Positions 57,386 through 57,666 of a stretch of 64,000 nucleotides of DNA are shown piece after piece. Source of the DNA: Cyanobacteria bacterium UBA7753 (GTDB taxonomy: Bacteria; Cyanobacteriota; Vampirovibrionia; Gastranaerophilales; Gastranaerophilaceae); the NCBI GenBank assembly GCA_002481545.1, contig DLEF01000057.1, forward strand, positions 4,679-68,678. Direction: 5' to 3'. The notes under the pieces are model-generated. The model made no database searches and was not told where the DNA came from. It was given only the letters and a program-made list of their open reading frames with translations. A program made the translations under genes and the position numbers. Positions within the stretch are counted from its first letter, which is position 1. Each line of letters starts with the position of its first letter.

Positions 57386-57666
57386 TGTTCTTATAATTTT
57401 GATTATCGGAAGTTGAAGGCACTAAGATACTAAGACACTAGGGCACTAAGGAACCGCTCCGCGGGTACACCCCTCACCCGCCTTCGGCACCCTCTCCCAC
57501 AAAGGAGAGAGGGGATTAACCGTTGCATTAGCAACGGTTTAGATTTTGCATAAGCAAAATCTAAAGTCTCGCCCCTACCTGCGGGAGAGACCGCAGCTGT
57601 TGTGTTAAAGCAATTACAGATGCGAGTGAGGGGGATTGACTTCTTATAATCAAAATTATAAGAACA
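57386..57666. repeat. 281-nt GC-rich multi-hairpin element bounded by a perfect 21-bp inverted repeat (MITE-like or structured ncRNA)
   Basis: tgttcttataattttgattat (57386..57406) is the exact reverse complement of 57646..57666. The interior holds at least 4 perfect local hairpins and one 8-bp long-range pairing. No ORF. Confidence 0.55.

What the first reader, a model, noticed from the sequence alone, without database searches (positions are those of the whole stretch)
57386..57666. 281-nt GC-rich, multi-hairpin element closed by a perfect 21-bp inverted repeat upstream of the infA ribosomal-protein operon
**Seen directly**
- tgttcttataattttgattat (57386..57406) is the exact reverse complement of 57646..57666.
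- The helix continues for 5 more bp (gaagt 57409..57413 / acttc 57639..57643) after a 2x2 internal loop.
- The 239-nt interior is much more GC-rich than the flanking DNA and has no ORF.
- It holds four near-perfect local hairpins: ctctcc/ggagag within 57490..57513; aaccgttgc-atta-gcaacggtt at 57518..57539; tagattttgc-ataa-gcaaaatcta at 57540..57563; ctgcgg-gagaga-ccgcag at 57579..57596.
- An 8-bp long-range pairing joins cccctcac (57470..57477) to gtgagggg (57626..57633).
- A direct repeat GGGGATT(A/G)AC occurs at 57511..57520 and 57631..57640.
- The 5' part carries a degenerate tandem (G/A)(C/T)ACTA(A/G)G x4. A 15-mer, cactagggcactaag (57436..57450), recurs exactly at 44322..44336 next to the REP cluster.

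**Interpretation (inference)**
- It may be a non-autonomous mobile element (MITE) that has captured several REP-type palindromes.
- Alternatively it is a large structured non-coding RNA sitting between the metalloprotease stop (14 nt away) and the infA promoter region.
- I do not recognise it as any Rfam family from memory.
Basis: seen in the sequence. Interest (0 to 1): 0.72.

Follow-up and report, generated by a model that had tools for sequence, protein, structure and literature searches.

The report
Nested mosaic of palindromic DNA repeats
The 281-base hairpin-rich element is real, but its GC-rich core is one copy of a species-specific family of small palindromic repeats (REP/BIME/MITE-like selfish DNA) enclosed by a one-off AT-rich inverted repeat, so it is most likely ordinary mobile 'junk' DNA and not a new RNA gene.

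Summary
A perfect 21-bp inverted repeat (28 nt at 93%) closes a GC-rich, ORF-free interior with several perfect hairpins. Predicted folding is extreme on both strands (z about -11) and there is no Rfam match.

The host is a gut Gastranaerophilales (Melainabacteria) species. The element lies 12 nt after the stop of a matrixin protease gene and 285 nt upstream of infA, both on the minus strand.

The interior (about 57408-57634) is not unique. DNA of the same genome just outside the window holds three more copies of the same core, at 70-85% identity. The hairpins are kept through compensatory changes, and one hairpin varies in length. These copies are mixed with octamer arrays (RYACTARG)n and GTAG-tagged REPs. 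Two such repeat-rich sites differ between strains, and a phage contig carries partial copies. Seven related species (87 kb) have none.

The outer AT-rich inverted repeat is in no other copy. It has no target-site duplication and no paired match in 185,579 species genomes.

Verdict: a nested REP/BIME-like mosaic repeat, probably selfish and mobilised in trans. It may incidentally act as an mRNA 3' hairpin. It is a new member of a known kind and of modest interest.

The parts
57386..57413 (.). Left arm of the outer AT-rich inverted repeat (21 nt perfect, then a 2-nt mismatch, then 5 nt). The arm is itself a near-palindrome: TTCTTATAAT-TTTG-ATTATcgGAA.
   Evidence: (I1, D2)
57639..57666 (.). Right arm of the outer inverted repeat. 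It contains a perfect 10-bp sub-hairpin, TTCTTATAAT-CAAA-ATTATAAGAA.
   Evidence: (I1, I14)
57411..57450 (+). Octamer-array module, (RYACTARG) x4 preceded by a degenerate unit. It is 75% identical over 40 nt to 44297-44336. It also occurs at L067 2183-2219, L067 4340-4360, L068 6763-6807 and in phage contig L062.
   Evidence: D1; D1
57454..57479 (+). Conserved 5' segment of the repeat core, CCGCTCCGCGGGTACACCCCTCACCC. It holds the 5' strand of the long-range helix. TRCACCCCTCACCC is identical in copies A, B, C and D.
57480..57488 (+). Variable hairpin position. It is a 9-nt mini-hairpin (GCCTTCGGC) here. In copies B, C, D and in the phage copy it is replaced by hairpins of about 35-46 nt.
57490..57514 (+). 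Core hairpin CCCTCTCC / GGAGAGAGGG. It folds in all five copies although the sequences differ.
57518..57539 (+). Core hairpin AACCGTTGC-ATTA-GCAACGGTT. It is present in copies A, B and D. Copy D keeps it through two G-T wobbles.
   Evidence: (I17)
57540..57563 (+). Core hairpin TAGATTTTGC-ATAA-GCAAAATCTA. Copy B has AGCTTGTGC/GCACAAGCT, which is two compensatory double changes.
   Evidence: (I4)
57565..57596 (+). Conserved core segment AGTCTCGCCCCTACCTGCGGGAGAGACCGCAG. It includes the local hairpin CTGCGG/CCGCAG. In copy B it pairs instead with the CTCTCCC...GGGGCGAG segment.
57597..57634 (+). Second variable hairpin, followed by the conserved 3' core segment GCGAGTGAGGGGG (3' strand of the long-range helix). 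Similarity to copy B ends at 57634.
   Evidence: (I11)
57679..58518 (-). Matrixin (Peptidase_M10) gene. Its stop codon is 12 nt from the element.
56885..57100 (-). infA, the first gene of infA-rpmJ-rpsM-rpsK-rpsD-rpoA-rplQ. Its start is 285 nt from the element. The upstream region is alignable with a related species (85% mean column identity), clearly over the proximal ~215 nt and patchily to within about 25 nt of the element.
44297..44481 (+). Second mosaic site in the window. An octamer array starts at the gatC stop codon and is followed by GTAG-tagged REPs (44341-44368, 44454-44481).
   Evidence: D1, D4
11083..11221 (.). Inverted pair of GTAG-tagged REPs (GGTGCGGTAGTGACCGCACCCTA / TAGGGTGTGGTCACTACCGCACC) 93 nt apart, a REPIN-like doublet. 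A further single REP lies at about 22596-22619.
   Evidence: D4, D6; I2

Best explanation
The element is a composite, non-coding DNA repeat.

**What it is.** Its GC-rich interior (about 57408-57634) is copy 'A' of a dispersed, modular, palindrome-rich repeat family specific to this Gastranaerophilales species. The family resembles REP/BIME mosaics and miniature transposable elements. Copy A consists of an octamer array, (RYACTARG)n, followed by a core of about 190 nt made of conserved hairpins. This copy is enclosed by a 28-nt AT-rich inverted repeat seen at no other copy. Each arm of that repeat is itself a small hairpin, which resembles a REP doublet (REPIN).

**How it most likely works (inferred, not shown).**
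- The modules spread as hairpin-forming DNA, copied or moved in trans by an enzyme encoded elsewhere. A RAYT-type HUH tyrosine transposase is the obvious candidate, because the genome carries GTAG-tagged REPs.
- The modules land next to or inside one another, which gives nested mosaics.
- No host function needs to be assumed.

**Possible side effect.** Read-through protease mRNA would fold into a 26-bp stem plus GC-rich hairpins. That could act as a 3'-end barrier or an RNase III site and insulate the infA operon.
For: **Shown here**
1. Three more copies of the core lie in the same genome within 9 kb of either end of the window: L067 4340-4585 (E = 7e-23), L067 1905-2225 and L068 3381-3528.
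2. The copies differ in module content. One hairpin is 9 nt in A and about 35-46 nt in B, C and D. C lacks one hairpin, carries an extra insert of about 150 nt and ends in a REP. D lacks the octamer array.
3. Hairpins are preserved despite sequence change. A and B are 70% identical. Of A's 63 predicted pairs, 44 are unchanged, 4 changed on one side, 9 changed on both sides and stayed paired, and 6 are broken. Each individual hairpin folds in every copy.
4. Two repeat-rich intergenic sites differ between strains. The copy C region of L067 is replaced by about 70 nt of other sequence in L066. A different 126-nt module of the same mosaic is present in L068 and absent in L069, and a second copy of that module sits inside the loop of a GTAG REP.
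5. The family is confined to this lineage. There are 4 core copies, several arrays and REPs in 81.7 kb of this species. There are none in 86.7 kb from 7 related species whose protease is 67-79% identical, or whose infA is identical.
6. A genuine phage contig (terminase, portal, amidase) carries the same octamer array, the same type of REP and a partial core (E = 7e-8).
7. The core lies in both orientations relative to flanking genes, and both strands fold equally well.
8. The genome has classical GTAG-tagged REPs.

**Precedent.** In Anabaena variabilis, REP dimers lie inside long AT-rich palindromes that are never found empty (PMC3733652, section 7).
Against: - No transposase was identified. 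A crude HUH-motif scan of the 82 kb found no RAYT-like ORF, and the rest of the genome could not be read.
- No empty or filled allele of this particular copy was seen. It is identical (at most 1 SNP) and in the same orientation in 7 independent samples.
- The origin of the outer inverted repeat is unexplained.
- Only four core copies are known, and they cluster in two repeat-rich regions.
- Stems kept by compensatory change, together with a variable-length hairpin at a fixed position, are also what a functional structured RNA would show.
Confidence: 0.6

Rival explanations
1. It is a classical MITE defined by the 21/28-bp outer terminal inverted repeats. A DDE transposase of a parent IS with the same ends (5'-TG...CA-3') moves the whole 281 nt, and the GC-rich interior is passenger sequence.
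For: - The element has long, perfect terminal inverted repeats, is 281 nt long, has no ORF and starts TG and ends CA.
- It lies at a synteny breakpoint. The gene downstream of the protease differs in every relative examined.
Against: - No second copy of the repeat arm exists in 82 kb of the genome or in the relatives, even with 6 mismatches allowed.
- Exact 19-mer scans of 185,579 species genomes, JGI metagenomes and IMG/VR gave only single hits whose flanks are about 25% identical, which is chance level. Those collections did not return this locus itself.
- There is no target-site duplication.
- The other three copies of the interior lack the outer repeat.
Confidence: 0.12
2. The conserved core is a multicopy structured non-coding RNA, or a cis-acting RNA element, with a function of its own. 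The outer helix is simply its closing stem at this locus.
For: - Predicted folding is extreme (z = -11.8).
- A and B show 9 compensatory pairs.
- A hairpin of variable length sits at a fixed position.
- Copy D keeps one stem through G-T wobbles that pair only on the element's + strand.
Against: - There is no Rfam match, even at E <= 10.
- Overall, both strands fold equally well, and other hairpins favour the opposite strand.
- Copies lie in sense and antisense orientation relative to neighbouring genes.
- Copies are truncated or rearranged (C, D and the phage copy).
- The family is absent from sister species.
- A perfect 21-bp A-T helix with no wobble pair looks like a DNA-level repeat.
Confidence: 0.12
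3. It is an invertible DNA switch (inverton). A site-specific recombinase flips the 225-nt segment between the inverted repeats to control the infA operon.
For: - The inverted repeats of 21-28 bp flank an intergenic segment upstream of an operon.
- A Xer-like tyrosine recombinase gene lies 4.3 kb away, at 61975-62886.
Against: - The orientation is the same in all 7 independent metagenome assemblies.
- No promoter-like site lies inside the segment.
- The interior belongs to a dispersed repeat family whose other copies lack such inverted repeats.
- The recombinase has the ordinary XerC/D domain layout.
Confidence: 0.03
4. The repeat has been recruited as the functional terminator or mRNA-stabilising 3' structure of the protease gene and as an insulator of the infA promoter. 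Selection, not selfish persistence, keeps it at this locus.
For: - The element starts 12 nt after the stop codon.
- It is fixed and nearly invariant in 7 samples.
- REPs, BIMEs and Correia elements are known to act in this way (established knowledge; PMC3733652 background).
- Relatives carry a simple GC hairpin after the same gene.
Against: - No U-tract follows the structure on the minus strand.
- The whole intergenic region is equally invariant, so there is no sign of selection specific to the element.
- Orientation is not consistent among copies.
Confidence: 0.1

Closest known systems
REP clusters / BIMEs (bacterial interspersed mosaic elements) of Proteobacteria
   Same: - Short GC-rich extragenic palindromes are combined with other short motifs in variable mosaics.
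- They lie just downstream of genes and differ between strains.
- GTAG-tagged REPs are present in the same genome.
   Different: - The conserved unit here is a multi-hairpin core of about 190-230 nt with a long-range helix, not a 20-40-nt REP.
- Its hairpins lack the GTAG tag.
- The host is a Melainabacterium.
- No RAYT was found in the DNA available.
Anabaena variabilis GTAG-15 REP dimers embedded in long AT-rich palindromes (Di Nocera et al. 2013, PMC3733652)
   Same: - GC-rich palindromic repeats sit in the centre of a long AT-rich palindrome with arms of about 27-28 nt.
- That palindrome is not found without its insert.
- The host belongs to the sister lineage of Melainabacteria.
   Different: - In Anabaena the outer palindrome is itself a repeated consensus. 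Here only one instance is known.
- Sequence similarity of the arms is limited to TTTGATT and is not convincing.
REPINs (REP doublets forming hairpins, mobilised by RAYTs)
   Same: Two inverted units, each itself a small palindrome, flank a spacer and form one long hairpin.
   Different: - The outer units are AT-rich and carry no GTAG tag.
- They are not known to be repeated.
- The spacer is 225 nt and is filled with another repeat.
Bacterial MITEs (Correia/NEMIS, ERIC, RUP, Nezha)
   Same: - The size is 70-300 bp, with 15-30-bp terminal inverted repeats and no ORF.
- The location is intergenic and next to a gene.
- If transcribed, the element would fold into a long hairpin, a possible RNase III substrate as for Correia elements.
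   Different: - There is no target-site duplication.
- No other copy shares the terminal repeats.
- No parent IS is known.
- The repeated part is the interior, not the ends.
IS200/IS605-derived palindrome-associated elements (PATEs)
   Same: - The family core has asymmetric ends with subterminal hairpins and no terminal inverted repeats.
- Diverse modules begin directly 3' of the same short motif (CTAAG of the octamer array). This would fit insertion 3' of a short target without duplication.
   Different: - No TnpA or TnpB gene has been seen.
- The use of CTAAG as a target is only an inference from six junctions.

Membership tests
MITE | Terminal inverted repeats of about 15-30 bp, small size, no coding capacity | tested here: met
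   The inverted repeat is 21 bp perfect, or 28 nt at 93%. The element is 281 nt long and has no ORF of 40 aa or more.
MITE | Several copies in the genome that share the terminal inverted repeats | tested here: not met
   - No second copy was found in 81.7 kb of this species, even with up to 6 mismatches in the 28-mer.
- The other three copies of the interior lack the repeat.
- The whole genome was not available, so this is a partial test.
MITE | Target-site duplication flanking the element | tested here: not met
   The flanks are ...GAGTTTA | element | ACTTATT.... The best 5-nt comparison, GTTTA versus ACTTA, gives 3 of 5 matches, and there is no TA duplication.
MITE | A parent IS with matching ends | tested here: not met
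   The exact 19-mer gave only isolated chance hits in genome contigs, metagenome contigs and viral contigs, with no pair on any contig. Diverged ends would have been missed.
REP / BIME | Short extragenic palindromic units repeated at many intergenic sites and combined in mosaics | tested here: met
   Four core copies, at least five octamer arrays and several REPs lie in 81.7 kb, all intergenic and in variable combinations.
REP / BIME | GTAG (or CGTC) tag at the foot of the palindrome | tested here: not met
   - The genome's REPs carry the tag (GTAGGGTGCGG..., GTAGGTCGGCATT...).
- The hairpins inside 57386-57666 do not. The only CTAC lies on the wrong side of the CTGCGG/CCGCAG hairpin and is CCAC in copy B.
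REP / BIME | A RAYT (Y1 HUH transposase) gene in the genome | not testable with these tools
   - Only 82 kb of the genome could be read.
- None of the called genes in the flanks carries Y1_Tnp.
- A crude HUH-motif scan found nothing.
REPIN | Two inverted REP units, each palindromic, separated by a spacer, occurring as a replicating population | tested here: inconclusive
   - The architecture is met. Each outer arm is a hairpin (I14 and D2) and the arms are inverted.
- The population criterion is not met in the DNA available.
Known structured RNA family (Rfam 15) | A match to a curated covariance model | tested here: not met
   No family matched copy A or the region holding copies B and C, at the gathering threshold or at E <= 10 or 1. 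Only microRNA-model noise appeared.
Structured RNA (generic) | Helices supported by covariation, on one defined strand | tested here: inconclusive
   - A and B show 9 compensatory pairs.
- Only two full-length copies exist.
- RNAalifold on 4 copies gave a weak consensus with 1 compensatory pair.
- There is no consistent strand preference.
Inverton (invertible promoter) | Both orientations present in populations, and a promoter inside the segment | tested here: not met
   All 7 independent assemblies have the same orientation, and no promoter-like site lies inside the segment. Read-level data were not available.

The most novel reading that the evidence does not exclude
The core of about 190-230 nt is a new kind of small mobile element, or a mobile structured RNA/DNA, confined to one Gastranaerophilales lineage and its phages.

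- It would insert site-specifically 3' of the CTAAG motif of the octamer arrays and into hairpin loops, including the loop of the AT-rich palindrome here and of a REP at L068 6873-6995.
- That would give reciprocal nesting of modules.
- Its conserved multi-hairpin fold would be the substrate recognised by a still unidentified enzyme, or would be a functional RNA.
Probability: 0.12. Interest if true: 0.6.

Novelty: new member of a known kind. Interest (0 to 1): 0.3.

Why it matters
- **For annotation:** the result stops an eye-catching, extremely stable 281-nt structure next to a ribosomal-protein operon from being filed as a new ncRNA or riboswitch-like leader.
- **For biology:** an uncultured gut Melainabacterium carries a recent, species-specific burst of modular palindromic repeats, GTAG REPs and octamer arrays. 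The repeats vary between strains, can extend ORFs, sit at synteny breakpoints and are shared with a phage.
- **If the mobilising enzyme were found:** the system could show how REP-like elements nest into one another, and it would provide strain-typing markers for this organism.

Tried and rejected
1. **Rfam.** The whole window was scanned at the gathering threshold, 57100-57900 at E <= 10 and L067 1700-4700 at E <= 1. Nothing relevant matched.
2. **Exact scan of the outer repeat.** The 19-mer was scanned in genome contigs, metagenome contigs and viral contigs. It gave 15, 27 and 1 single hits, all chance, with flanks about 25% identical.
3. **blastn of the element against phage and plasmid collections.** No match.
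4. **Viral scans for conserved core motifs, the main REP and one interior hairpin.** No match.
5. **Viral scan for the palindrome TTCTTATAATNNNNATTATAAGAA.** Three unrelated palindromes.
6. **Empty-site search at the orthologous locus.** It failed because the protease-infA adjacency exists only in this species, and every relative has a different gene downstream of the protease.
7. **Idea that the outer AT-rich repeat is related to the AT-rich variable hairpin of copy B (reciprocal nesting).** The alignment score was reached by 12% of shuffles, so the idea was rejected.
8. **Similarity of the outer arm to the Anabaena palindrome consensus.** Only TTTGATT and a few more bases match, so it is treated as an analogy only.
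9. **Crude HUH-motif search for a RAYT in the 82 kb.** Nothing convincing.
10. **RNAalifold on four copies.** It was uninformative because two copies are truncated and the variable hairpin misaligns.

Full report
**1. The observation**

The sequence is as described. 57386-57406 is the exact reverse complement of 57646-57666, and the inverted repeat extends to 28 nt at 93%. The 21-mer occurs nowhere else in the 64-kb window, against 0.01 expected by chance.

The interior has 52% GC, and 56-58% in its 5' half. The window has 37% and the immediate flanks 19-25%. No ORF of 40 aa or more overlaps the element.

The local hairpins, the 12-nt long-range pairing CCCCTCACCCGC/GCGAGTGAGGGG, the GGGGATTRAC direct repeat and the four octamers are all present. 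The 15-mer shared with 44322-44336 is real.

As RNA the element folds to -124.5 kcal/mol (z = -11.8) on the + strand and -123.4 (z = -10.7) on the - strand.

Two small corrections apply:
- The protease stop codon is 12 nt away, not 14.
- Both neighbouring genes are on the minus strand. The element therefore follows the protease gene (57679-58518) and lies 285 nt upstream of infA (56885-57100).

**2. Organism and locus**

Homologues of the protease are named as Gastranaerophilales or 'Cyanobacteria bacterium RUI128/SIG28' by their sources. The host is therefore a gut Melainabacterium.

The same locus was recovered from 7 independent metagenome samples. The whole 578-nt spacer is identical apart from one SNP (T57603C), and the element always has the same orientation. 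One JGI scaffold has an N-gap and a poly-G run inside the element. I read that as an assembly artefact.

Every related species examined (protease 67-79% identical) has a different gene downstream of the protease. A species with an identical infA has a different gene upstream of infA. The infA upstream region of that species aligns with the window (85% mean column identity): the proximal ~215 nt match strongly, with patchier matches up to about 25 nt from the element's edge.

The element therefore sits at a synteny junction specific to this species, outside the conserved infA promoter and leader region. No orthologous empty site exists for comparison.

**3. Not a known RNA, not in the reference collections**

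Rfam 15 gives nothing at the gathering threshold or at E <= 10, and nothing for the sister copies. blastn against phage and plasmid collections gives nothing.

Exact scans for the outer 19-mer in 185,579 species genomes, in JGI metagenomes and in IMG/VR gave only isolated chance matches. Neither large collection returned the window's own locus, so the scans say nothing about copy number in this genome.

**4. The key result: the interior is a repeat**

Fetching 10 kb beyond each end of the window from contigs of the same strain revealed three further copies of the interior.

| Copy | Location | Orientation | Notes |
|---|---|---|---|
| A | window, about 57408-57634 | + | the finding |
| B | L067 4340-4585 | + | matches element positions 45-249, E = 7e-23 |
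| C | L067 1905-2225 | - | extra insert of about 150 nt, lacks one hairpin, ends in a REP |
| D | L068 3381-3528 | - | no octamer array, 3' part diverged |

The alignment defines a core with this order:
- CCGCTCCGCGG-TRCACCCCTCACCC;
- a variable hairpin;
- the CCCTCTCC hairpin;
- the ACCGTTGC hairpin;
- the TAGMTTKTGC hairpin;
- AGTCTCGCCCCNACCTGCGGGAGAGACCG;
- a second variable hairpin;
- CGAGTGAGGGGG.

In A and B the core follows an octamer array directly. In C the array is separated from it by the ~150-nt insert. D has no array. None of the other copies has the outer AT-rich inverted repeat, and no second copy of that 28-mer exists in the 82 kb even with 6 mismatches.

A profile of the core finds these four copies and a partial copy in contig L062 (E = 7e-8), and nothing else. 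86.7 kb from 7 related species contains no core, no octamer array and no GTAG REP.

**5. Structure is conserved, but not strand-specifically**

A and B are 70% identical. The 63 base pairs predicted for A fare as follows in B:

| Fate in B | Pairs |
|---|---|
| Unchanged | 44 |
| Changed on one side, still paired | 4 |
| Changed on both sides, still paired | 9 |
| Broken | 6 |

Each hairpin folds in every copy that has it. The hairpin after CACCCCTCACCC is 9 nt in A and about 35-46 nt in B, C, D and the phage copy.

There is no consistent strand preference. One stem in D needs G-T wobbles on the + strand, whereas the variable hairpins are more stable on the other strand. The core is antisense to flanking genes at A and B and sense at C and D. 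With only two full-length copies, covariation statistics are weak.

**6. A mosaic, strain-variable repeat landscape**

- **REPs.** The same genome has GTAG-tagged REPs: GTAGGGTGCGGTCACTACCGCACC at 11083, 11199, 22596, 44341 and 44454, and GTAGGTCGGCATTACTATGCCGAC in the flanks.
- **Octamer arrays.** Arrays begin at the stop codons of gatC (44297), of the gene that ends at L069 2946 (its L068 allele is extended by the insertion described below), and of the 605-aa gene in L067.
- **Junctions.** Six different modules start directly 3' of ...GCACTAAG.
- **Strain difference 1.** The copy C region of L067 is replaced by about 70 nt of other sequence in L066.
- **Strain difference 2.** A 126-nt module of a different family is present in L068 and absent in L069, and it lengthens an ORF from 981 to 1014 aa. 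A second copy of that module sits inside the loop of a REP, GTAGGTCGGATT[...]AATCCGAC.
- **Phage.** L062 has terminase, portal and amidase genes. It carries a roughly 240-nt element bounded by inverted octamer arrays that share an exact 24-mer with the window, two REPs of the same type and the partial core.

**7. Interpretation**

Multicopy, modular, lineage-restricted, strain-variable and shared with a phage: these are the marks of selfish, trans-mobilised repeats of the REP/BIME/MITE type.

The best reading is that the 281-nt element is a nested composite: one copy of the core plus array enclosed by an AT-rich inverted pair of small hairpins.

The closest precedent is in Anabaena variabilis. 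There, REP dimers lie inside long AT-rich palindromes that are never found without their insert (PMC3733652, section 7).

The mobilising enzyme is inferred, not shown. The GTAG REPs point to a RAYT, but none was found in the 82 kb.

Any effect on expression is also inferred. A transcript reading through from the protease gene would form a 26-bp stem, which is a plausible RNase III substrate and 3' barrier. No U-tract follows the structure, and no promoter-like site lies inside it.

**8. Rivals**

- **Classical MITE defined by the outer repeat (0.12).** It fails on copy number, target-site duplication and parent IS, as far as these could be tested.
- **Functional structured RNA (0.12).** It remains possible because stems covary. 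Mixed orientation, truncated copies, equal folding of both strands and absence from sister species argue against it.
- **Inverton (0.03).** A Xer-like recombinase gene lies 4.3 kb away. All 7 assemblies share one orientation, and the interior is a dispersed repeat.
- **Recruited terminator or insulator (0.10).** This is compatible with the main explanation as a secondary role.

**9. Verdict**

The feature is real. It is a new member of a known kind (REP/BIME/MITE-like mosaic repeats) in a poorly studied lineage. Interest is modest at 0.3. The main value is to prevent mis-annotation as a new RNA and to flag an unusually modular repeat system shared between a Melainabacterium and a phage.

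Noticed in passing
window 11083-11105 / 11199-11221, about 22596-22619, 44341-44368, 44454-44481: A family of GTAG-tagged REPs (GTAGGGTGCGGTCACTACCGCACC). The pair near 11.1 kb is inverted with a 93-nt spacer, like a REPIN. I know of no report of REPs in Melainabacteria, and a literature search turned up none.
   Followed up: partly
window 44297-44336; L069 2944-2972; L067 2183-2222: Octamer arrays (RYACTARG)n begin exactly at the TAG stop codons of three unrelated genes. Different repeat modules follow directly 3' of ...CTAAG. The array might be a landing pad or the left end of the mobile units.
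   Followed up: partly
L062 (IMGVR_UViG_3300011989_000485) 3088-3325, 7497-7660, 10900-11145: A phage contig (terminase large and small subunits, portal, amidase) carries three things: a roughly 240-nt element bounded by inverted octamer arrays (an exact 24-mer is shared with the window), two GTAG REPs, and two inverted copies of a roughly 180-nt mosaic that includes a partial core. The repeats are therefore shared between phage and presumed host.
   Followed up: partly
L068 6652-6777 versus L069 2939-2943; L068 6873-6995: A 126-nt hairpin module (ends GCGAAATTC...GAATTTCAAGAC) is present in one strain and absent in another. It extends a large ORF from 981 to 1014 aa. A second copy lies inside the 4-nt loop of a GTAGGTCGGATT...AATCCGAC REP.
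   Followed up: partly
L061 3336-3440, L063 8661-8740, L065 2010-2073 (IMG/VR contigs, GC about 0.52): Pure (GCACTAAG)n arrays lie next to (GGCAATGAAA)n arrays in unrelated viral contigs. They recall the short tandem repeats of filamentous cyanobacteria. Whether they are related to the arrays here is unknown.
   Followed up: no
window 57101-57350 (minus strand), especially 57140-57159: About 250 nt upstream of infA is conserved with a related species (85% mean column identity). It includes a hairpin just before the ribosome-binding site that changes from GTACA/TGTAC to CACAT/ATGTG. This may be a conserved infA leader or regulatory hairpin.
   Followed up: no
window about 56590-56745 (rpmJ-rpsM spacer); L006 4880-4964: The spacer between rpmJ and rpsM is highly conserved between species and may be a leader for the S13 operon. 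In one strain (L006) its 3' part is replaced by a different sequence that is 35 nt longer.
   Followed up: no
window 61975-62886 (-): A Xer-like tyrosine recombinase (Phage_int_SAM_1 plus Phage_integrase, 303 aa) lies 4.3 kb from the element. It was considered for the inverton hypothesis and looks like an ordinary XerC/D.
   Followed up: partly
L003 / L008 (JGI 3300011977 scaffold) 2080-2190: This assembly has an N-gap and a long poly-G run inside the element. The hairpin-rich repeat evidently breaks short-read assembly. Such artefacts could hide or distort these repeats in MAGs.
   Followed up: no
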